A stretch of 64,000 nucleotides of DNA, taken from Naegleria gruberi. Taxonomy: Eukaryota. Position 1 is the stretch's first letter. Every line of letters begins with the position of its first letter. Below are positions 35,866 through 64,000 of the stretch, piece by piece. Both the position numbers and the translations under genes were made by a program. The notes under the pieces were generated by a model. It was given only the letters and a program-made list of their open reading frames with translations. It was not told the DNA's origin and searched no databases. The DNA lies in assembly GCA_000004985.1 (NCBI GenBank), contig GG738847.1; one strand, given 5' to 3'.

Positions 35866-38424
35866 TTAATTAGCAATGGAAGGTGTGGAGCTAGTATTTG
35901 AACGGTAAGTTGATTTAAAATTTGGAATTGAAAGAAATCTTCTCTTGATCCAATCTGTGAGTTGATCGTAATTTTCAAATTGATTTTTCATTCCACACTG
36001 GGTCATTACTTGATTCCATTCCTCAATGGAGAGCAAATCAATTAATTTGGTGAGAGAATCAATTGCAGATAGCCTCCATTCAGTTCTATATTGATCCCTA
36101 ATTGTGGCATTGTATTTGGAACGAATAGTTTTAAGAACGAGATGCATGGTATTGATTCGTTCCTGGATTGACATTTCACAATTTTCAAATTGGTACTTGA
36201 CATATAATTTAACATGAGAGATGTTTCCACTTTCCAATAGAGAAATGATTACTCTCAAATAATAGTATCTTCTGAGAGAATTATTTCTGGAATAGGCACC
36301 AGAAACAAATTCTAGCAAATCATCAATTTGTCTCAATCTTGGTTTGATAGCATAATTTTGAATTAATATTCTCAAATCTAATCGACATGTATCAGATGCT
36401 ATGAGTTTGGATTGTTTGTTTTGTAAAAAGTGTGGAATGCTGGAATCAGAAGAAGAAAGAAAAGATTCTTCATCCATTGACCTAGTTCCATACCTTAAAT
36501 GCCTAGCTGTAGATTGTGGCATGTACCAATCGGCCTTGCTTGTCTTACTCTTCGATTGTTCTTCATTGAGTTTTCCCATAACACTGTAACTTGTCAGTAT
36601 GTATTTGTCAAATGATCTCTCCATTTGTATAACCAGATATTCAAAAATCATGGTTTGGGTTGAAATATTCTTCTCTTTAGTAGTGTCAAATAGAGGATTT
36701 TCATGTAAATTCTTCTTCCAATCAATTAGAGAAGATTGATTATTCTTCTCAAATGCTTTGATAGACTCAAGAAGTGGAATATTAGTTGCTTTGAAAGTGG
36801 TTGGTATATTATCAGTTCCAATATTAACTGTATGATCTATTGTCATCATGGTGTTCCATATAAAATCGTGATAAATTTTCCATACAATATTGAGGAATGG
36901 TATATCAAATACGAGTGGCTCTCGAATGATTCTGTCACATATTTTAATAGCATCTTCATACTTGGCATTATTAGCCAAGTAGGTAAGAATGATGGTGAGA
37001 GTAGAGACATTAATTTGTACACCATTTTCCTCAAATTTAGTCAAAGTTTTTAGTGCATCTGCTTCTTTGCCATGTTTTAACTGTAAATTCAAAAATATAT
37101 TTAAAATTCTAGTACTACATTTGATATTTAACTTGTTAAGGAATATGTCAAACAGAGTCGATACTTGTTCATAGGTCATTAAACTAGATGCCTTTGACTC
37201 GGATCTGAATAGGTCTCTAATATTTATAGGTGAAATAATATGAACATAATTACTCTTATTAGTTATGTTTTCTTGAATAATATCAATTAGTATCCTCAAA
37301 TGGTCTGGCTTATTAGATTCCGACAGATAATAAATTAATAAATTAAAACACCTTTGGGATGGTCTCTTAATGAGCTTGTATACCTCATAAACTTGATCAT
37401 AGTATTTACACTCCCCAAATATTGTCAATAATTTGTGTGCAATCTCATAAACATGCGAATTGCTAAAGAAATGTGACTCAGTATGATCATTTGCCAAACA
37501 AGTAATAAATGGAAGAATTAATCTATCACTTTCTTGCTTTACCAAAAGATAGGCCGTTTCATATTTTCTTCCTTCAATTAAAAGTTCCAAAATAATATCC
37601 AGTGAATAAATATCCATAATATAATAATCACTATTAGACATTCCAACAACAAATGATAAACATTGTTGCATGGATGAATCATTGGTAAAATCATCCTGTC
37701 TGAAAATATCCAACAAGAGTTGAAGGGAAGGAGCAGAAGGTGAAGAATTTCCTTCATTATTATTAACAGCTTCAAACAGTCTTTTTCCATATTCTTCCTT
37801 CATTGAATTAATAGATAATCTCACAAGAAATGATATTCCTTTTTGAGTGATTGGATCACAAATATTTTTCTTATTCCATGAATTATCCTTTGTGTAATCT
37901 TTCAGAAATATTAAAATCTTTTGAATTTTTAAATATTCTTTGGTTTGATCAAAATGGCAAAGAAGAGTATCACAAATCTTGGCAATTGACAATACTGTAT
38001 ATTTTTCCGAGTTTTCATCATGTTCTTCATATATGAAATCAAATAGATCCTTCCCTTTTTCTAATAAAAACAATGCTTTGTGATAGTTTCCTCGATCCAA
38101 TTGTTCAAAAATTGGATTAAAATTATTAGCAATTTGTGTTAATTTTTTTAAATTAATTGCCATATCATTTGATAAATTAGTATTAGATGAAATTATTTTC
38201 AATGATTTCCTAGATGTTGAATGATTAAATTTCTTTGATGTTGAAATAATAACCTCCTCATGTAGTTTAATTCTGTTTCTTTTCTTTTTTTCTTCCACAT
38301 TTTGTGTAAATGATGATTCCTCATGATATGTAAATCCGCTTCCGAAGGAGGAACTATATTTTCTATATCCTGTTGGGGTCACAGAAAATGTCTTGTGTAG
38401 AAAAGGAAGAAGCTGTTTTTTCAT
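35866..38424 (-). CDS. Large helical-repeat protein (852 aa), putative mitochondrial (PPR/TPR-like)
   Basis: N-terminus MKKQLLPFLHKTFSVTPTGYRKYSSSF looks like a mitochondrial presequence. The remainder is long alpha-helical repeat-like sequence. No firm family assignment. Confidence 0.45.
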   Translation of the reverse strand: MKKQLLPFLHKTFSVTPTGYRKYSSSFGSGFTYHEESSFTQNVEEKKKRNRIKLHEEVIISTSKKFNHSTSRKSLKIISSNTNLSNDMAINLKKLTQIANNFNPIFEQLDRGNYHKALFLLEKGKDLFDFIYEEHDENSEKYTVLSIAKICDTLLCHFDQTKEYLKIQKILIFLKDYTKDNSWNKKNICDPITQKGISFLVRLSINSMKEEYGKRLFEAVNNNEGNSSPSAPSLQLLLDIFRQDDFTNDSSMQQCLSFVVGMSNSDYYIMDIYSLDIILELLIEGRKYETAYLLVKQESDRLILPFITCLANDHTESHFFSNSHVYEIAHKLLTIFGECKYYDQVYEVYKLIKRPSQRCFNLLIYYLSESNKPDHLRILIDIIQENITNKSNYVHIISPINIRDLFRSESKASSLMTYEQVSTLFDIFLNKLNIKCSTRILNIFLNLQLKHGKEADALKTLTKFEENGVQINVSTLTIILTYLANNAKYEDAIKICDRIIREPLVFDIPFLNIVWKIYHDFIWNTMMTIDHTVNIGTDNIPTTFKATNIPLLESIKAFEKNNQSSLIDWKKNLHENPLFDTTKEKNISTQTMIFEYLVIQMERSFDKYILTSYSVMGKLNEEQSKSKTSKADWYMPQSTARHLRYGTRSMDEESFLSSSDSSIPHFLQNKQSKLIASDTCRLDLRILIQNYAIKPRLRQIDDLLEFVSGAYSRNNSLRRYYYLRVIISLLESGNISHVKLYVKYQFENCEMSIQERINTMHLVLKTIRSKYNATIRDQYRTEWRLSAIDSLTKLIDLLSIEEWNQVMTQCGMKNQFENYDQLTDWIKRRFLSIPNFKSTYRSNTSSTPSIAN

Positions 38425-43193: not shown

Positions 43194-43266
43194 GGGGATG
43201 TAGCTCACATGGTAGAGCGCTTCTTTAGCATGGAAGAGGTACGGGGATCGATACCCCGCATCTCCA
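43194..43266 (+). tRNA. tRNA-Ala (anticodon AGC), 73 nt, no encoded CCA
   Basis: Cloverleaf GGGGATG/TA/GCTC-ACATGGT-AGAGC/G/CTTCT-TTAGCAT-GGAAG/AGGTA/CGGGG-ATCGATA-CCCCG/CATCTCC/A. G3:U70 alanine identity pair. Followed by a T-run. Confidence 0.9.
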
Positions 43267-43426
43267 CTCAATTTTTTACCTACTTTTCAACATTTTCACA
43301 ATTTCTATTAGTAATTGTAGACTGTTCTTATTCTTGTTTCTTAACCTTTTCAAAATAAAGTACTGCAACCTAATTGTTATCTTCAAAACTCACTTCAACT
43401 CAATCAAAACAACTTCAAACAAAAAA

Positions 43427-56666: not shown

Positions 56667-57809
56667 TTAGATTTTGAATTTTGCTGTTTTCAAAGAATTG
56701 TGGAATAGTCTGCTTTGAATTGGACCTCCCAAGAAATCAATATGTGATTGTAAAGTGAATTGTCCAGCTCTATATATGAAATTGGGTGACTTGTTGAGAA
56801 TAAGATTGCCTGCATCCATCTTTGGATCTGGATAATAATTGAATATTAAATAATTCATATCCTCAGTATTCTCAAAGTGATAGACAAATATTCTTCTTCC
56901 CATACTTTTTCTAATTTGTTCACCCGATCTGGCAACATTCCACACTCTTATATCTGTAAATTCACCCTTCATAGTTCCAGAATGAATATCAGAAGCGGCA
57001 GCAATCACTAGCTCCATATTATTCTTTTCAAAATCCAAATCTCCATCAGAAATAAATACCTTGTCAAATGCTTCTCCATTCACGTAAAATGTTGCATAAT
57101 TACTCTTCATATCATACACTCCAGCAACATGTGTCCATTCGTATGATTTGGTGAGATAGCATTGAGTTTGTTTAGATCCAACTCCAAATCTAATATCTAA
57201 CTTTGGAGAAATATATAATCCAATACCATGTTTCGAATCCTTATTTCTCAATACTAGAACACAATCATTTCCATGCACTGTATTCCATTCATATGGAATA
57301 TTTATCCATGCCTCAATGGTAATTCCCTCATTTTGAACCAAGACTGAATGAAAATCCTCATTCAAATCTTCAGATAAAATCCCATTCAAATTGCTAAATC
57401 TAGAACTAGCTTGAAAAGTGTAAAAATCCGAAGAGAAGAACAAATTTTTCATCTCCAACCAATTATTATTCATAAAGAAAATAACTTGTAAACAATTTAG
57501 GGATGAAATTTGATCCAGAGTTGTTTCCTTAGGAATTAACTTTCTTCTGCTTAATTGCTTCCAAACATAGGGCTTGAATTTTTCAATTTCATTCCACATC
57601 TCTCTGGTCATACTTTCTCCATCATTCCTTGTCTTTTCACTACTTTTAGCAATGATCTGCAATAACCATTCCGTAAAGGCAGATGAGTTTGGATCTCGAA
57701 AATGTGTCTCATAACATGATCGGGAAAACAACGTCATAGATTTGTAATCAGAGATGGGACAATAGCTTAACACGAGACCTAGGACATCCCCCGTTAAGTC
57801 GTCTAGCAT
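56667..57809 (-). CDS. F-box-like protein with C-terminal ConA-like/LamG-type domain
   Basis: N-terminus LDDLTGDVLGLVLSYCPISDYKSMTLFSRSCY is F-box-like. The C-terminal 200 aa has a LamG/pentraxin-like beta-sandwich pattern (WINIPYEWNTVHGNDCVLVLRN...YATFYVNGEAFDKV...GEFTDIRVWN). Confidence 0.5.
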   Translation of the reverse strand: MLDDLTGDVLGLVLSYCPISDYKSMTLFSRSCYETHFRDPNSSAFTEWLLQIIAKSSEKTRNDGESMTREMWNEIEKFKPYVWKQLSRRKLIPKETTLDQISSLNCLQVIFFMNNNWLEMKNLFFSSDFYTFQASSRFSNLNGILSEDLNEDFHSVLVQNEGITIEAWINIPYEWNTVHGNDCVLVLRNKDSKHGIGLYISPKLDIRFGVGSKQTQCYLTKSYEWTHVAGVYDMKSNYATFYVNGEAFDKVFISDGDLDFEKNNMELVIAAASDIHSGTMKGEFTDIRVWNVARSGEQIRKSMGRRIFVYHFENTEDMNYLIFNYYPDPKMDAGNLILNKSPNFIYRAGQFTLQSHIDFLGGPIQSRLFHNSLKTAKFKI

Positions 57810-57976: not shown

Positions 57977-58049
57977 GGGGATGTAGCTCACATGGTAGAG
58001 CGCTTCTTTAGCATGGAAGAGGTACGGGGATCGATACCCCGCATCTCCA
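57977..58049 (+). tRNA. tRNA-Ala (anticodon AGC), second copy, 73 nt
   Basis: Identical to the 43194..43266 copy over all 73 nt. Shares the 5' flank TGAATGTGAAG and the 3' flank CTCAAT(T/A)TTTT. Confidence 0.9.
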
Positions 58050-58200
58050 CTCAATATTTTTAAATAACTTTAAATTTTTAAAAGCCTACACAAAATTAGG
58101 AAGAATAGGTCCCTATATAATATTCTCCACTCAAACCTTAAATATGATACAAAAACACATTTTACTATACTCAATGGCTGATCAAGATAAAATAAATTAG

Positions 58201-59118
58201 CTAAACAATAACCACAGTTTCTCCTGGAAAGACAGCCTCAATGTCATCGTTTCCATCAAAGGAACTTGTCTTATCTTCCAACACTTCTGCATAATGAGAA
58301 AAGGTCCCATGATGAACAACCAATGTTTTTCTCGCTTTCAATTTCTTATGCATTTCAATAATATTCTTTGAATTATTGGTAATTGAACCAATTACTCTAG
58401 TTGCAATAGCTCCAATAATTTTCTTCTTATCCATTGATGCTTCTCCTCCATTTGTTACAATAAAATCCAATGGATTTTCACTCAATTCCTTGTAATCATC
58501 TGAAATATTGTCCTCATTATAAATTGAATCACCAGTTGCATAAAATCTTGAATGATGATTGCCATTTGAGGATATTGATACCAAATAACCATTTCCATTT
58601 CCAACCATTGCTCCAATTTTTCTGCAACTTCCATGGAAAGCATTTACTGATCTCAATGTAATATCAAATCCATTAATTTCCAATTTTAAATCTTGAGCAG
58701 GTGACATCCAATGAACATTTCTATTTCCAAATGTCAAATCCTTTTGTTTCAGAACTTTTTTCATTAATCCCTCAACACTTGGATGAGCAATCACAATACT
58801 ATCCTTCTTTCCATTCAAAATTCGTTCCAATCCAAATGAGTCCAAGTGATCTTCATGTCCATGAGTTAACAGCCACAAATCAACATCCAATAAATCAGCA
58901 TCACCTTCCAGTGCAGGTTCTTGCATTCTAGTCGATTTAAAAAGTCCATAATTCTGCACATGTCCTTTTGGACACAACACTGGATCACACGCGATGATCA
59001 AGTCTTGTTTTCCTGTTGTTATTATCTTATATACAAATGTTGCTCCTCCAATGGATCGGAGAGTTGAAGTGCCCTCTGTTGCTGCTGTATTCTCAACGAG
59101 TATTTCAGCTTGTTGCAT
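58201..59118 (-). CDS. Metallo-beta-lactamase-fold hydrolase
   Basis: HxHxDH motif LLTHGHEDHLDS plus downstream His/Asp ligand candidates. 305-aa single exon. Confidence 0.7.
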   Translation of the reverse strand: MQQAEILVENTAATEGTSTLRSIGGATFVYKIITTGKQDLIIACDPVLCPKGHVQNYGLFKSTRMQEPALEGDADLLDVDLWLLTHGHEDHLDSFGLERILNGKKDSIVIAHPSVEGLMKKVLKQKDLTFGNRNVHWMSPAQDLKLEINGFDITLRSVNAFHGSCRKIGAMVGNGNGYLVSISSNGNHHSRFYATGDSIYNEDNISDDYKELSENPLDFIVTNGGEASMDKKKIIGAIATRVIGSITNNSKNIIEMHKKLKARKTLVVHHGTFSHYAEVLEDKTSSFDGNDDIEAVFPGETVVIV

Positions 59119-59464: not shown

Positions 59465-61692
59465 TTAATTAATTGTTGATGAGCTAATATCGCAAACCAA
59501 TCTATGAGTTTGAGATGATGGAATTGAAAAGAAAGTAACACTCAATGGCAGTTCAGTATATGAATTTCCTTGCTTTTTTGGAGAATTTAAAATTGCCACT
59601 TTTGGAGAATAATCTGTTTCAATAAATGGTAATCCAAATATTTCTAATTCGATTTTGGAGGATAATTTGAATACTGGTAACCCTGATTCAATGTGATATA
59701 ATGAATCATGAGTCATTATAAAGCTTAATCGAACACCTTCCATCTCTCTAGATTGTATTTGAGAAAATTCTAATGGTCTTGGAGTAGAGATTGTAAACTG
59801 TGCAAGACTTTGTCTGTTGAATCTGGGCATTTGAGGAGTGAATGTAATTGCATCCGAATTATTGTTGTTATATGATAACTGATGATATGTTTGTCTAATA
59901 GAATTTACACTATATTTTACACATAGGAGTTGCAGATGTTCAGCTCGAGCACAATCATTGTCTGTGAATGGAACATGATTTGTTTCAATTTGTTGTTTGA
60001 TTTGATGTAAATAGGTCACAAAGGACTTGGTATCCATTGATTTATCTGTTTGTTCCTCGTTAGTGTATTTCCGTTTAACACCTGTAGTATATGGTAGTTT
60101 TACACATTCTTTCTTGAAATATTGAAATTTGAGTGATGAATATTTCATAATATACTCCATTACTGTTGTTCTTTTCGAATACACTCGTTGTTCACCAAAA
60201 AATCCTTCTAAAGATCTTGTGCCAAACACTTGAAGTTGTGGCTGGGTATTTGGTGGTATTAAGGGAATTAATTTTGAAATTGTTTCCAAGTTATGCTTAA
60301 TCGTTGCCTTGGAAAACGTTCCAAAAATAGTAAAATTATTATTCTTGTTGGTGCTATTTACATCACTAAAGATATCATCCCACCAATCAAGAAACTCTAA
60401 TGATTGAGAAAGAATTAATAACTTGAGTGAGAGAATTTTTTGATTTCTTTGTGACTTTGTGAATGTCATCGTACGTGAAAAATCATGAATAAGTTTCAAG
60501 TAAGAATATAGACCCAAATATTTGTTGTTAGTTTGTTGATTCAATTTTGCCAATTCATTAATTAACAAGGGAGAACACACTTGCCGCAATACATCTTCAG
60601 ATTGATCATCATAATTAATAAAAGCAGACCTTCTAATAATTTTGCACCAATATGATGGATTTGTTTGGTAAATTTCATCTAATGTCTTCAGCTCAAATTT
60701 TTGTAAGAGTGATTCTTCAATTGAAATGAAAAACACATTCTCAATACTTCTATTGTTAATTGTTAAATTTGGAATACTTGTTTGGTTGGGGTTGGAGCAG
60801 AGAAAAGTTAATGATAAATTATGCAAGGAATCATCAATAGTGTAAAAAAAAGATGAGCTTGCACCATTAACAGTAGTGGATTTCTTATTGGCCCAAGAAA
60901 CAACTATTTCATCATCTCCAAGATTGAATGCAAGATTAATTATAGCATCACTATATTTGTGAAATGAAAGTTTAAGTAGATGACTGTCCTCCAGTTGTTG
61001 ATGATAATGGAAGAGTGGAACGACCTGGTATTTCTTCCATTATATATCTCCTTTGATACTGATGGAAAGAGTTTTGGCTTTGTTTCAATAGCATTCCTCA
61101 AATTTTTACATAAATGAGAATAGCAAAAATGGTGAGGATATTCTGATGTTTGCCAATTAGCACCTCCTGCATCAGAAACAGTGCATGTTATTTGATTAGT
61201 ATACACATCCTTGAATTTTGTAATAACATGTTGAAGATCTTCACTTGTTTCAGACTTGCAAAACTTGAAATTGCCTGGAATTCTCAATTTTCCTTCAATA
61301 TAGAGTGTTTGGATAACCTTTTCGGCCAGAAAATTATTTTGAATAATATTATCATTAATTGTATGTGATTGTGTTATTGGAATAGGACCTTGAATAGCTC
61401 CAATTAATAATCCAGATTTACGATTAATACTTAAACTAGAGAAAAGATCCATTCCATCCACTTGCAAAATACCTAATGTAGTATTATCTATTCCAATGAT
61501 TTCACGTAGATGTGAGAAATCAGCTGCATCTAAAGAAGTATCACCATAGCCAACATTTGGGTGATGAAAATGATTATCAAGCGTAGAAGAACATGGAAGT
61601 ATTAAATTACAATAGTATGCAGATGTGTCAAATTTTTCTGAATTTCCAGTCATATATCCTCTTCCGATAGCTTCATAAAGATTATAACCCAT
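59465..61692 (-). CDS. Hypothetical large protein encoded by two overlapping ORFs (60940..61722 and 59465..61039 frames) separated by a frameshift; possible pseudogene or assembly indel
   Basis: ORF 60940..61722 (first ATG MGYNLYEAIG at 61692) and the frame of ORF 59465..60826 (open up to 61039) overlap by about 100 nt in different frames. The downstream ORF has no ATG near its start. No recognised domain and no reverse-transcriptase or transposase motif. Confidence 0.35.
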
Positions 61693-62118
61693 AGCTGCTA
61701 GCAAATCTTGACCATGATACACAAAATTATGAATATTGGGTCATGTTCAACAAGTACATGTTGTTGCACTACTCTGAAGGTCAAAGTTCTTGACAATAAT
61801 AATCTAGATTATGTTAATTATCCATGTGGTTGGTATACATGCCTGGGCGAAACCAGGAAATATTGGATTCATCCACAAGGTATTCCTTTGGAAGGGTCGG
61901 AAAGTACTTTTTATTTGACCAGCACAATGAATTATTGGAACGTGTTGAAATGAATGACAATACGTACATTATTTTCAAGTATTTGCACTTGTTTTTTCCA
62001 AACTACATTCAATACGACCAACGTTATCATCATCAAATCATGCAATCACCAAATCACAACACCATCACAATCATCACAACGGTGCCATCAAATAGCTTAA
62101 AAAAAAATCATCAAAAAT

Positions 62119-64000
62119 ATGAAACATACCTTCCTTCGTAAAATCAATAGATTGCAGTTATTTACTGCATCACCCAAAATCAACAGATCAATATTAAAAA
62201 TTAATAATTTAACTAATGATATTAACAAGTTTACAATTAATAGAGTGAATCAAACTAAAAACTATTCAAATACATTAAAACCAACAACAAATAATGTTGA
62301 AAATATTAAATTTAAAAATATTGGTGACCGAAATTTGTTGGTGCCATATTTTCCATATGGTGAATCAGATTTTGCTTCCATCAGAAGAAGTAAACAATTT
62401 TATGTTGATAAAACTAATTTAATTCCTCTATTAGAAGAAAGTGGAAAACAATTATTTTTTGTTCGTCCTCCGAGATGGGGAAAATCACTATTATTATCAA
62501 TGCTTTCATCATATTATGATGTTAACAAGAAAGATGAATTTGATGAATTATTTTCTGGTTTATGGATTGGTGATGAAAATAATTGGACACCTGGAAAGAA
62601 TCAATATTATGTTTTAAAGTTAGATTTTTCTATTCAAGTTGATGGTACTGCTGATGATATTAATCAACGACTTCACACAAAAATCAATACAACCATTGAA
62701 GGATTTTTGGAATGTTATGGTATGGGTGGTGAGGTTAGCATTAATCAAAATGATTCATTTGATACTTATCAAAAACTTATCCAACTTTTAGTCAAGAGAA
62801 AAGGCAAATTAATGGTATTAATTGATGAATATGATAGATTTGCAAACAAATTAATGTTTGAAAATCCTGAAAAATATCAATTAATAGTTGAAGGAAAGAG
62901 AGGAGATCCAACATCTTCACCAATTCGTTCTTTCTTTGAAAGATTGAAAGAGTCTTCCGCTACTGGTTTACAAGATTTTCGTAGTATCATCACTGGTATC
63001 ACTCCTATTGCTCTTGCTGATGCATCTGGATATAATGTTTCCAGTAATATTTCCTCTGATAAGATATTTGGTGGTTTGGTTGGTTTTACAGAAAATGATT
63101 TGAGAATGGCATTAAATAACATTGATATTATTGGAAATGATCAAGATATTACCATTTCAACCATGAAAAAGTATTATAAAGGTTATCATTTTCCTGGTTC
63201 AAAACATGCTCTATTCAACACAACTCTTTCAATGTTCTTTTTGAACAAACTTGTAAAAGATGAACCTTTCAGAAATGCTGTTCTACAAAAACAAGAAATT
63301 CCATTATCAATATTAACAGATACCAACACAATGATCAGTGAGAACGTTTTTGCAACTTTGGCATCATCAGTTGTATCGAATGATATTATTCAACAATTAC
63401 TTTCAAAAGATTATGTAGAAGTAACAGAGTCAATTTATCCTTCACTGAAATTAAGAGAGATTATTGATCCACCATCCAATGAAGAAGATATACAAAAGAT
63501 TCGTGATAATGCTTTATCATTCATGTATTATCATGGTATGATTACTTTCACAGAATCATCCTCAAAACAAATGAATCCAAAACAATTGTTAATTCCAAAT
63601 GAAATTGCAAAGGTTCAATATTTGGAACAGTTACGTAGACTTATATCTTTACGTGAAAGTGATATATCAACTTTTATTAATGAACCAACTCAAGATAATT
63701 TGAAAAAATTACTTTGGAGTATTTTAAGCAAGCAAGAAACAGTGTTTGACAATGATATGTCTGAAGGAGGTTTACAATCTTGTATTGAATCTGCATTGAG
63801 ATCATATTCTTTATATAGAAGCAAAGATTTTACTCTTAGAGCAGAAAAGGAATATACAAATTATCATATCAATGGAAAAGAATATACTGAATTAAGAGCT
63901 GACCTTGTTATTTCAACCGACAATGACATATTTATCATTGAATTGAAACATTTGAGACCAATGTATTTATCACAATATTCTACTATTAGAATTTGGAAAC
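62119..64000 (+). CDS. AAA-ATPase-like (PF09820-type) / PD-(D/E)XK nuclease-like (PF08011-type) family protein, 3' partial (runs off window)
   Basis: Open frame from ATG 62119 to the window end (over 620 codons). Absent from the ORF track because it has no stop. Contains YFPYGESDFASIRRSKQFYVDKTNLIPLLEESGKQLFFVRPPRWGKSLLLSMLSSYY, then VLIDEYDRF, and later TELRADLVI...IFIIELKH. Confidence 0.65.
   Translation, partial: MKHTFLRKINRLQLFTASPKINRSILKINNLTNDINKFTINRVNQTKNYSNTLKPTTNNVENIKFKNIGDRNLLVPYFPYGESDFASIRRSKQFYVDKTNLIPLLEESGKQLFFVRPPRWGKSLLLSMLSSYYDVNKKDEFDELFSGLWIGDENNWTPGKNQYYVLKLDFSIQVDGTADDINQRLHTKINTTIEGFLECYGMGGEVSINQNDSFDTYQKLIQLLVKRKGKLMVLIDEYDRFANKLMFENPEKYQLIVEGKRGDPTSSPIRSFFERLKESSATGLQDFRSIITGITPIALADASGYNVSSNISSDKIFGGLVGFTENDLRMALNNIDIIGNDQDITISTMKKYYKGYHFPGSKHALFNTTLSMFFLNKLVKDEPFRNAVLQKQEIPLSILTDTNTMISENVFATLASSVVSNDIIQQLLSKDYVEVTESIYPSLKLREIIDPPSNEEDIQKIRDNALSFMYYHGMITFTESSSKQMNPKQLLIPNEIAKVQYLEQLRRLISLRESDISTFINEPTQDNLKKLLWSILSKQETVFDNDMSEGGLQSCIESALRSYSLYRSKDFTLRAEKEYTNYHINGKEYTELRADLVISTDNDIFIIELKHLRPMYLSQYSTIRIWK

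What the first reader, a model, noticed from the sequence alone, without database searches (positions are those of the whole stretch)
62119..64000. Partial gene with AAA-ATPase-like N-terminal block and PD-(D/E)XK-like C-terminal region, invisible in the ORF track
A continuous open frame of over 620 codons on the + strand from ATG 62119 to the window edge is missing from the supplied ORF list, presumably because it has no stop inside the window. Its N-terminal block (GESDFASIRRSKQFYVDKTNLIPLL...FFVRPPRWGKSLLLSMLSSYY...VLIDEYDRF) is the signature of the 'predicted AAA-ATPase' family. That family is usually paired with a C-terminal PD-(D/E)XK nuclease-like domain; candidate D/E...ELK residues are present here (ELRADLVISTDNDIFIIELKH). 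The architecture is abundant in some bacteria and patchy in eukaryotes, so it may be horizontally acquired or lineage-expanded. It lies directly beside a frameshift-disrupted unknown gene and 4 kb from a tRNA-Ala gene.
Basis: partly seen in the sequence, partly recalled or inferred. Interest (0 to 1): 0.6.

Follow-up and report, generated by a model that had tools for sequence, protein, structure and literature searches.

The report
Naegleria ATPase-nuclease gene of bacterial ancestry
The open frame at the window's end is the first 627 of 709 codons of an already annotated but unstudied Naegleria gruberi gene for an ATPase fused to a DNA-cutting domain, belonging to a eukaryote-only branch of a bacterial family that is multi-copy, reshuffled between copies, and probably sent to mitochondria.

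Summary
ATG 62119 opens a 627-codon frame that runs off the window. It equals residues 1-627 of N. gruberi NEG-M NAEGRDRAFT_62270 (XP_002682256.1, 709 aa, 'predicted protein').

Pfam PF09820 is hit strongly (E=1.7e-42). PF08011 is not hit at Pfam thresholds, even full length. Profile-profile comparison still shows the C-terminus is homologous to bacterial PDDEXK_9 domains (97%, E=7e-11), with a clade-specific ~45-aa insertion. E549, D595 and E608-x-K610 are intact. A confident AlphaFold model matches Arch_ATPase/ORC-Cdc6/STAND NTPases plus PD-(D/E)XK nucleases.

New points:
- The gene belongs to a monophyletic eukaryote-only clade (100% bootstrap) covering Naegleria, Willaertia, Balamuthia, Clydonella, Flabellula and Amoeboaphelidium. 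Its nearest bacterial relatives are at most 35% identical.
- Most clade members carry unrelated but presequence-like N-termini, so mitochondrial import is predicted but unproven.
- NEG-M has at least three near-identical paralogues on one scaffold. Their 5' 1.4 kb is identical (dS=0) but their nuclease cassettes are divergent (dS~0.6), which indicates gene conversion.

Verdict: a real gene in a known, uncharacterised family (DUF1703), representing an undescribed eukaryotic variant. Moderate interest.

The parts
62098..62118 (+). In-frame stop (TAA 62098) and A-rich leader before the start codon. Identity to the paralogous copy on L001 begins about 60 bp upstream of the ATG (at 62059).
62119..62346 (+). 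N-terminal extension, residues 1-76. It is basic, has no acidic residue before position 34, is disordered in the model except for a short helix at 2-13, and has a KNYS motif near its end. Predicted mitochondrial presequence plus linker (inferred).
   Evidence: Orthologues carry IR[RKS]FSTT-type motifs.
62353..63021 (+). AAA+-type NTPase domain (Pfam PF09820), residues 79-301.
   Evidence: E=1.7e-42; fold matches to Arch_ATPase, ORC/Cdc6 and STAND NTPases
62464..62487 (+). Walker A variant RPPRWGKS, residues 116-123. R116, P117, R119, G121 and K122 are invariant in 84 sequences. The eukaryote clade has Pro where bacteria have the second Arg of RPRRFGKS.
   Evidence: PMC1913061
62815..62838 (+). 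Walker B VLIDEYDR, residues 233-240. D236 and D239 are invariant and E237 is present in at least 90% of sequences.
62611..62823 (+). Variable cassette inside the ATPase domain, about residues 165-235. The window copy equals paralogue 62226 here, while paralogue 78045 is only about 50% identical.
62941..63000 (+). Short divergent patch (80% nucleotide identity) inside the otherwise 98-100% identical tract shared with L001. Looks like a short conversion tract.
63022..63738 (+). Mostly helical middle region, residues 302-540 (AAA+ lid and linker domains). It contains columns conserved between bacteria and eukaryotes: G322, F358, D401, N403, G473, P493, N494.
63739..63999 (+). First half of the PD-(D/E)XK (PDDEXK_9-like) nuclease domain, residues 541-627. 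It holds motif I (E549, 63763-63765), motif II (D595, 63901-63903) and motif III (E608-x-K610, 63940-63948). This is the cassette that diverges from the paralogues (55% amino-acid identity, dS 0.59). The rest of the domain (insertion, motif IV helix, two final strands; residues 628-709) lies beyond the window.

Best explanation
Identity: the frame is the first 627 codons of NAEGRDRAFT_62270, a single-exon nuclear gene of Naegleria gruberi NEG-M that encodes a 709-aa protein. Architecture: it has the four-part DUF1703 layout. This is an Arch_ATPase/ORC-Cdc6/STAND-like AAA+ NTPase with an unusual P-loop (RPPRWGKS) and a DEYD Walker B, then a lid and helical linker, then a C-terminal Mg-dependent PD-(D/E)XK nuclease (E549, D595, E608-x-K610). 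Proposed mechanism (inferred from the fold families, not shown): ATP binding and hydrolysis by the NTPase module controls self-assembly or nucleic-acid engagement, and so licenses cutting by the nuclease domain. Origin: the gene sits on a eukaryote-only branch of a family that is otherwise bacterial or archaeal. The most economical reading is one old bacterium-to-eukaryote transfer, followed by vertical descent with losses and/or spread among amoeboid protists. Family dynamics: in N. gruberi the gene was duplicated into at least three dispersed copies on one scaffold, and non-allelic gene conversion keeps their 5' 1.4 kb identical while the nuclease cassette and an internal ATPase cassette differ. 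Localisation: the added 76-residue N-terminus most likely acts as a mitochondrial import signal, which would make the protein an organellar ATP-regulated nuclease for mtDNA upkeep or removal of unwanted DNA. I put this localisation step at about 50% likely.
Against: No activity, expression or localisation data exist for any member. The three paralogues are absent from the held part (about 582 of about 1,024 entries) of the published N. gruberi mitochondrial and peroxisomal proteome. No dedicated targeting predictor could be run. One subclade (EYKRLR type) has acidic, non-presequence N-termini. PF08011 is below the Pfam threshold. In this paralogue the motif IV glutamine (Q in 80/84 sequences) is a lysine, and omega in the cassette is 0.58, so this copy's nuclease may be altered or under relaxed constraint. 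The tree is neighbour-joining on only the best 120 hits and is unrooted, so the donor and direction of transfer are inferred. The nucleotide-level mosaic was measured against a metagenomic copy (L001), not against the NEG-M paralogous loci, which the tools could not fetch.
Confidence: 0.7

Rival explanations
1. The same protein works in the cytosol or nucleus as an innate-immunity-type sensor-effector. In this reading it is an NTPase switch coupled to a nuclease that destroys invading DNA from viruses, plasmids or ingested bacteria. The N-terminal extension would be a disordered tail rather than an import signal.
Against: There is no PADLOC match for the Naegleria protein or for a bacterial relative. 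The protein has no repeat-type sensor domain (TPR, LRR or WD40). Presequence-like N-termini recur in lineages whose extensions share no sequence similarity, which is hard to explain without a targeting role. Omega is below 1.
Confidence: 0.2
2. The gene is cargo or machinery of a selfish mobile element, and the identical copies reflect recent transposition rather than gene conversion.
For: There are three or more copies with identical 5' sequence in different genomic contexts. A 145-bp upstream segment is present but inverted at the L001 copy. The gene is a compositional outlier, with the lowest GC (0.287) and GC3 (0.177) of 17 ORFs. The family is prone to horizontal transfer and expansion in symbionts and insects (PMC6387759; bioRxiv 10.1101/2024.06.03.597214).
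Against: Identity starts only about 60 bp before the ATG and ends inside the coding region (about 63540). That fits conversion tracts, not element boundaries. No transposase, integrase or terminal repeats were seen next to the gene, and there is no second copy within the 64-kb window. Orthologues are retained across Naegleria species and Willaertia.
Confidence: 0.07
3. This particular copy is a decaying duplicate with no function of its own.
For: It is the only one of 84 sequences with lysine at the motif IV glutamine position. It has a divergent cassette with omega 0.58 and the lowest GC3 in the window. Other family members have clearly lost catalytic residues: N. lovaniensis P0008 and P0009, and Willaertia P0004.
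Against: The 709-codon frame is intact. The Walker A and B motifs and nuclease motifs I-III are all intact. dN is less than dS in every segment.
Confidence: 0.03

Closest known systems
DUF1703 family (Pfam PF09820 AAA-ATPase_like + PF08011 PDDEXK_9), defined by Knizewski et al. 2007 (PMC1913061)
   Same: [quoted passage not shown] It shares the arginine-rich P-loop ending in GKS, the DEYD Walker B, nuclease motifs I-III and the extra C-terminal strand.
   Different: This is a eukaryote-only clade with RPPR[WF]GKS instead of RPRRFGKS and DEYDR instead of DEYDN/H. It has an insertion of about 45 aa after the ExK strand, a 20-120 aa N-terminal extension, and sub-threshold PF08011 scores. The family was described as bacterial and archaeal only (PMC1913061, PMC3424549).
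Archaeal Arch_ATPase proteins (PDB 2fna SSO1545, 2qen PABY2304) and ORC/Cdc6 initiators
   Different: Sequence identity is only 8-14%. These proteins have no nuclease domain. The match is to the fold, not evidence of family membership.
STAND NTPase immune proteins with nuclease effectors (Avs, NLR-like)
   Different: There is no repeat sensor domain, the nuclease is C-terminal rather than N-terminal, and there is no PADLOC hit.
CifB/CinB cytoplasmic-incompatibility nucleases of Wolbachia and other symbionts
   Different: CifB has tandem nuclease domains, works with a CifA partner, and is a bacterial effector delivered into host cells. No partner gene is evident here.
Bacterial AAA-ATPase-like genes transferred into hemipteran insects (whiteflies, psyllids, mealybugs)
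   Same: This is precedent for bacterium-to-eukaryote transfer of this family followed by expansion (bioRxiv 10.1101/2024.06.03.597214).
   Different: Those are independent, recent, insect-specific events. The clade here spans Heterolobosea, Amoebozoa and Aphelida and has acquired eukaryote-specific features.

Membership tests
DUF1703 (PF09820 + PF08011) | [quoted passage not shown] | tested here: met
   146 bits against a 26.1 cutoff, E=1.7e-42, residues 79-301, profile positions 1-199 of 201
DUF1703 (PF09820 + PF08011) | Arginine-rich Walker A (RPRRFGKS) and a DEYD Walker B | tested here: met
   RPPRWGKS and VLIDEYDR. R116, P117, R119, G121, K122, D236 and D239 are invariant in 84 sequences. 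One deviation: the second Arg of the bacterial motif is Pro throughout the eukaryote clade.
DUF1703 (PF09820 + PF08011) | C-terminal PDDEXK_9 domain scoring above Pfam's gathering threshold (25.5 bits) | tested here: not met
   No hit in the window fragment or in full-length P0129. Paralogues and orthologues score 14.5-17.8 bits, E 0.003-0.035.
DUF1703 (PF09820 + PF08011) | C-terminal domain homologous to that of PF08011-positive members when compared profile to profile | tested here: met
   hhalign of 47 eukaryote-type against 43 bacterial C-termini: probability 97.1%, E=7.3e-11, 104 aligned columns, with one insertion of about 45 aa
DUF1703 (PF09820 + PF08011) | PD-(D/E)XK motifs I (E), II (D) and III (ExK) | tested here: met
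   E549, D595 and E608-x-K610 sit in columns that are 79/84 E, 76/84 D, 82/84 E and 75/84 K. All lie inside the window.
DUF1703 (PF09820 + PF08011) | Motif IV glutamine in the second core helix | tested here: not met
   The column is Q in 80/84 sequences. NAEGRDRAFT_62270 has K672, with Q675 one turn later. The paralogues 62226 and 78045 have Q. The position lies beyond the window.
DUF1703 (PF09820 + PF08011) | [quoted passage not shown] | tested here: met
   AF2 model elements: H549-564, E572-582, E588-599, E603-612, inserted helices and strands at 628-661, H662-684, E690-699, E703-708
DUF1703 (PF09820 + PF08011) | ATPase and nuclease activity | not testable with these tools
   I found no biochemical data for any family member in the literature searched.
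Mitochondrial matrix proteins with a cleavable presequence | N-terminal basic, acid-poor, amphipathic segment with an R-2/R-3 cleavage motif | tested here: inconclusive
   First acidic residue at position 34; 7 K+R in the first 30; hydrophobic moment 0.57; helix 2-13; KNYS motif. Orthologues carry IR[RKS]FSTT, and other lineages carry MLxRR...RFLSTT-type N-termini. These are heuristics only, because no trained predictor was available.
Mitochondrial matrix proteins with a cleavable presequence | Detection in purified mitochondria | tested here: inconclusive
   None of the three paralogues appears in the held portion (about 582 of about 1,024 entries) of Supplementary Data 2 of PMC8134430. The file is truncated.
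STAND NTPases (NLR, Avs, Apaf-1 type) | NTPase core followed by a C-terminal repeat sensor (TPR, LRR or WD40) | tested here: not met
Known anti-phage defence systems (PADLOC-DB v2) | Match to any defence-protein model | tested here: not met
   0 families for P0129 and for the bacterial relative P0058 at E up to 0.1

The most novel reading that the evidence does not exclude
A previously undescribed, eukaryote-specific organellar system. In this reading, amoeboid protists from at least three supergroups import a bacterial-type ATP-gated PD-(D/E)XK nuclease into mitochondria. There it polices or maintains the organelle genome, for example by degrading damaged, foreign or selfish DNA. In Naegleria the gene family diversifies its nuclease specificity by swapping cassettes between paralogues through gene conversion.
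Probability: 0.2. Interest if true: 0.7.

Novelty: new variant of a known kind. Interest (0 to 1): 0.38.

Why it matters
The DUF1703 ATPase-nuclease family is large (more than 579 loci among prokaryotic species representatives) but has no known function. It had been described as bacterial and archaeal only, apart from recent insect transfers.

This work shows a coherent eukaryote-only branch with its own P-loop variant, a nuclease insertion and presequence-like N-termini. That gives a concrete, testable hypothesis: a bacterial-derived, ATP-regulated nuclease working in the mitochondria of free-living and pathogenic amoebae (Naegleria fowleri and Balamuthia have orthologues).

The cassette mosaic among N. 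gruberi paralogues is also a clean small example of gene conversion shaping a multi-copy gene in an organism whose recombination biology is poorly known.

If the mitochondrial prediction fails, the finding reduces to one more horizontally derived, lineage-expanded gene of unknown function.

Tried and rejected
1. Extending the contig: exact look-ups of P0002 and of two neighbouring window proteins found no indexed N. gruberi DNA. The missing 82 codons are therefore known only from the deposited protein P0129.

2. NCBIfam gave no meaningful hit.

3. A sequence search of the PDB gave only spurious Csm2 and chemoreceptor hits at E of 0.03 or worse. No relative has a solved structure.

4. A first HMM built from only 8 bacterial C-termini gave weak, uninformative scores. 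Two hhalign runs failed on input format. The a3m-formatted run is the one used.

5. My first tree test mis-binned Willaertia P0004 as bacterial because its Walker B is degenerate, giving a false 0% support. This was corrected.

6. Giant-virus or other viral vector for the patchy distribution: the IMG/VR scan found only bacterial-type relatives at 24-32% full-length identity on contigs of 56.6 kb or less. Rejected for lack of support.

7. Alphaproteobacterial (endosymbiont) origin: no alphaproteobacterium appears among the best 80 prokaryotic loci. Not supported.

8. Bacterial contamination of the assembly: rejected. The flanking genes are N. gruberi genes, the gene is 29% GC with GC3 of 0.18, and eukaryote-type tRNA-Ala(AGC) genes are nearby.

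9. Literature on the three locus tags or UniProt IDs: none found.

10. Intron versus frameshift in the upstream neighbour: the GT-AG enumeration gave 59 frame-restoring joins. Left undecided.
Full report
**1. Observation**

Translating window 62119-64000 on the + strand gives 627 codons without a stop. An in-frame TAA lies at 62098, and ATG 62119 is the first ATG after it, so the N-terminus is well defined. The frame is missing from ORF lists only because ORFs that run off the window are not listed.

- Walker A, RPPRWGKS, at 62464-62487.
- Walker B, VLIDEYDR, at 62815-62838.
- RADLVI at 63895-63912.
- IIELKH at 63934-63951.

A tRNA-Ala(AGC) lies at 57977-58050, which is 4,069 bp upstream.

**2. 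Source organism and gene identity**

Seven long ORFs of the window are exact matches to Naegleria gruberi NEG-M proteins on a 941,567-bp scaffold. Examples are NAEGRDRAFT_62267 at 56667-57809 and NAEGRDRAFT_62268 at 58201-59118.

The closest database clusters were P0001 (a metagenomic contig, 91% identity) and P0002 (NAEGRDRAFT_78045, 86%). Opening the 90% cluster of P0002 revealed P0129, which is NAEGRDRAFT_62270 / XP_002682256.1 / D2V0E8. It is 709 aa and annotated as 'predicted protein'. Its first 627 residues are identical to the window frame.

So the gene is annotated and single-exon, and 82 codons lie beyond the window. The N. gruberi DNA itself could not be fetched.

**3. Domain architecture**

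*N-terminal domain.* Pfam PF09820 (AAA-ATPase_like) hits residues 79-301 at E=1.7e-42.

*C-terminal domain.* The predicted PF08011 hit does not appear in the fragment or in full-length P0129. Paralogues and orthologues reach only 14.5-17.8 bits against a threshold of 25.5.

A profile-profile comparison of 47 eukaryote-type C-termini against 43 bacterial ones gives 97.1% probability and E=7.3e-11. The eukaryote type has one insertion of about 45 residues between the ExK strand and the motif IV helix.

Column counts in the 84-sequence alignment:

| Position in P0129 | Residue | Sequences sharing it |
|---|---|---|
| 549 (motif I) | E | 79/84 |
| 595 (motif II) | D | 76/84 |
| 608 (motif III) | E | 82/84 |
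| 610 (motif III) | K | 75/84 |

R116, P117, R119, G121, K122, D236 and D239 are invariant.

*Structure.* An AlphaFold2 model of P0129 built on this alignment is confident (pLDDT 85.9, pTM 0.82). Residues 1-65 and 69-72 are disordered (pLDDT below 50; block means stay low to about residue 70). The C-terminal domain runs alpha-beta-beta-beta-(insertion)-alpha-beta-beta.
- Foldseek ranks ORC/Cdc6 first and gives a weak match to the Shedu nuclease SduA.

This is the four-domain DUF1703 layout defined by Knizewski et al. 2007 (PMC1913061). No relative has a solved structure detectable by sequence.

**4. A distinct eukaryote-only clade**

The motif table separates two groups:

| Feature | Eukaryote-type group (includes the window gene) | Bacterial proteins |
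|---|---|---|
| Walker A | RPPR[WF]GKS | RPRRFGKS |
| Walker B | DEYDR | DEYDN/H |
| Nuclease motif | D...E[LF]KR[IVL]R | ELKY |
| Tail after ExK | 92-137 residues | about 56-74 residues |
| N-terminal extension | 20-120 residues | none |

*Support.* A neighbour-joining tree on 532 columns recovers the eukaryote-type group in 100/100 bootstraps. It joins a Desulfobacterales-like group in 91/100.

*Members.* Named members are N. gruberi, N. fowleri, N. lovaniensis, Willaertia magna, Balamuthia mandrillaris, Clydonella sp., Flabellula baltica, Amoeboaphelidium occidentale and an MMETSP transcriptome. The two unnamed members on long metagenomic contigs sit among eukaryotic genes: LTR-retrotransposon pol, Ras/Arf, Integrator subunit 8 and ankyrin proteins.

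*Nearest prokaryotes.* A scan of one genome per prokaryotic species found at least 579 relatives. The best are at most 35% identical and scattered over Competibacteraceae, Desulfobacterales, Chromatiaceae, Thiothrix, Chloroflexota, Bacteroidota and others. No alphaproteobacterium is among the best 80.

*Viruses.* Viral contigs hold only bacterial-type relatives.

*Reading.* The simplest reading is one bacterium-to-eukaryote transfer, from an unidentified donor and not from the mitochondrial ancestor. It was followed by vertical descent with losses and/or eukaryote-to-eukaryote spread. There is precedent: this family has repeatedly entered hemipteran insects from bacteria and then expanded (bioRxiv 10.1101/2024.06.03.597214).

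*Limits.* The tree is a distance tree, uses only the best 120 hits, and is unrooted.

**5. The N-terminal extension**

Residues 1-76 are absent from bacterial proteins. They contain no acidic residue before position 34. They have 7 K+R in the first 30 residues, the highest of 17 long ORFs in the window. A short helix forms at residues 2-13 and the rest is disordered.

Orthologues and paralogues in Naegleria and Willaertia have non-homologous extensions. These end in IRSFSTT, IRKFSTT, IRRFSTT or IKNYSNN, the pattern of R-3/R-2 processing sites (established knowledge about mitochondrial processing peptidase).

Members from other lineages begin with MLVRRAFAGRRFLSTTT, MLKVVRKVLPFHRLSST, MLSVRRGAVVPRFARG... 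or MFPVFFRRVALSSAALRRFAAT. A protein from the experimental N. gruberi mitochondrial proteome shows the same QRLFSTL feature.

I therefore infer mitochondrial import. Three things count against or limit this:
- None of the three paralogues is in the held portion (about 582 of about 1,024 entries) of that proteome.
- One subclade has acidic N-termini.
- No trained targeting predictor was available.

I put the localisation at roughly 50%.

**6. Paralogy and mosaicism**

*Copies in NEG-M.*
- Three full-length copies at 90% or more on the same scaffold: NAEGRDRAFT_62226, 62270 and 78045.
- A partial copy on a 7.6-kb contig.
- A divergent 376-aa copy (63616) on another scaffold, which is 68% identical to the C-terminal half of N. 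lovaniensis P0005.

*Protein level.* 62270 and 62226 differ at 2 of the first 475 residues, then fall to about 55% identity across the nuclease domain. 78045 shares the 62226 nuclease cassette but carries a different cassette at residues of about 165-235.

*Nucleotide level, window against the metagenomic copy L001*:
- 98-100% identical per 60-bp bin from 62101 to 63540, apart from an 80% patch at 62941-63000.
- 58-88% identical after 63540.
- Unalignable upstream of about 62059, apart from a 145-bp inverted piece.

*Substitution rates*:

| Codons | dS | omega |
|---|---|---|
| 1-270 and 301-470 | 0 | not defined |
| 471-540 | 0.50 | 0.21 |
| 541-627 | 0.59 | 0.58 |

Old duplicates whose 5' parts have been homogenised very recently fit these numbers. 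So does a recent replacement of the 3' cassette. Either way it is non-allelic gene conversion or recombination. The boundaries fall inside the gene, which does not fit transposition of a discrete element.

*Peculiarity of the window copy.* It is the only one of 84 sequences with lysine instead of the motif IV glutamine (K672, beyond the window). Its nuclease may therefore be functionally altered. It also has the lowest GC (0.287) and GC3 (0.177) of the 17 long ORFs.

**7. Mechanism**

Shown:
- The fold and the intact nucleotide-binding and metal-binding motifs.

Inferred from the behaviour of ORC/Cdc6, STAND and related AAA+ proteins and of PD-(D/E)XK nucleases:
- Nucleotide state controls assembly on, or engagement with, nucleic acid.
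- The C-terminal domain then cleaves in a Mg-dependent manner.

If the protein is imported, its substrate would be mitochondrial nucleic acid.

Rivals:
- A cytosolic or nuclear immunity-type sensor-nuclease. The NLR/Avs/BrxC fold matches and the variable cassettes favour it. The lack of a sensor domain, the lack of PADLOC hits and the presequence-like N-termini argue against it.
- A mobile-element gene.
- A decaying duplicate.

**8. Comparison with the known, and verdict**

The gene is a member of the DUF1703 family by every test except two: the Pfam PF08011 threshold, and in this paralogue the motif IV glutamine. The family has been known since 2007 but has no experimentally established function. 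It was described as prokaryotic. I found no paper on the eukaryote-type clade or on these loci.

What is new is the delineation of a eukaryote-only variant with presequence-like N-termini, and the cassette mosaic among the Naegleria paralogues.

This is of moderate interest. It is not surprising in kind, since horizontally derived, expanded gene families are common in Naegleria. But it offers a concrete hypothesis for an uncharacterised family in amoebae that include two human pathogens.

Noticed in passing
window 43194-43267 and 57977-58050 (+): There are two tRNA-Ala(AGC) genes with identical 74-nt sequences about 14.7 kb apart. Their 150-bp flanks are only about 50% identical (189/374), so this is a dispersed duplicate and not a segmental repeat.
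   Followed up: partly
window 61727-61871 versus L001 2897-3035: A 145-bp segment just upstream of the gene is 94.5% identical to a segment just upstream of the paralogous or orthologous copy on metagenomic contig L001, but in inverted orientation. Nothing else in the upstream regions aligns. It could be a small invertible or mobile promoter-proximal element, or a short exon.
   Followed up: partly
window 59465-61722 (-): The neighbour called 'frameshift-disrupted' is two ORFs (453 aa and 260 aa) in different frames, 113 bp apart, with no significant Pfam hit. 59 GT-AG joins would restore one frame, and a T8 run lies in the gap. Intron versus frameshift was not resolved. It is presumably NAEGRDRAFT_62269.
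   Followed up: partly
window 35866-38424 (-), NAEGRDRAFT_62256: This 852-aa 'predicted protein' also has a presequence-like N-terminus (MKKQLLPFLHKTFSVTPTGYRKYSSS..., first acidic residue at position 35), so it may be another mitochondrial protein.
   Followed up: no
window 62119-63999: The gene is the compositional outlier of the window: GC 0.287 and GC3 0.177, against 0.30-0.39 and 0.22-0.34 for 16 other long ORFs. The cause is unknown. Low expression, a conversion-associated bias or an AT-rich source are possibilities.
   Followed up: no
P0008, P0009 (N. lovaniensis) and P0004 (Willaertia magna): Some family members have lost catalytic residues. P0008 and P0009 have DESD in place of DEYD, D-to-S at motif II, K-to-T at motif III and Q-to-R at motif IV. 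P0004 has E-to-G in Walker B and D-to-R at motif II. These may be non-catalytic, regulatory paralogues.
   Followed up: partly
P0023, P0027 and P0136-P0141 (Clydonella sp. ATCC 50884 transcriptome): Many Trinity isoforms of one 'gene' fall into two clusters below 90% identity (661 and 678 aa). This hints at the same multi-copy, mosaic behaviour in an amoebozoan.
   Followed up: no
L002-L080 (IMG/VR contigs): Seventy-nine viral or prophage contigs encode bacterial-type relatives of this ATPase. Many are near-identical short matches from human-gut-type samples. This suggests the bacterial family often rides on mobile elements.
   Followed up: no
window 56667-57809 (-) and 58201-59118 (-): The neighbouring genes encode a ConA-like/Laminin_G_3 domain protein (E=7.8e-16) and a metallo-beta-lactamase-fold protein (Lactamase_B_2, E=1.1e-12). 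I see no functional link to the ATPase-nuclease.
   Followed up: no
L161 840-3743 (+): The eukaryotic metagenomic contig carrying clade member P0026 has an LTR-retrotransposon pol gene about 6 kb upstream and a putative Ulp-type peptidase immediately downstream. This is context only and was not analysed.
   Followed up: no
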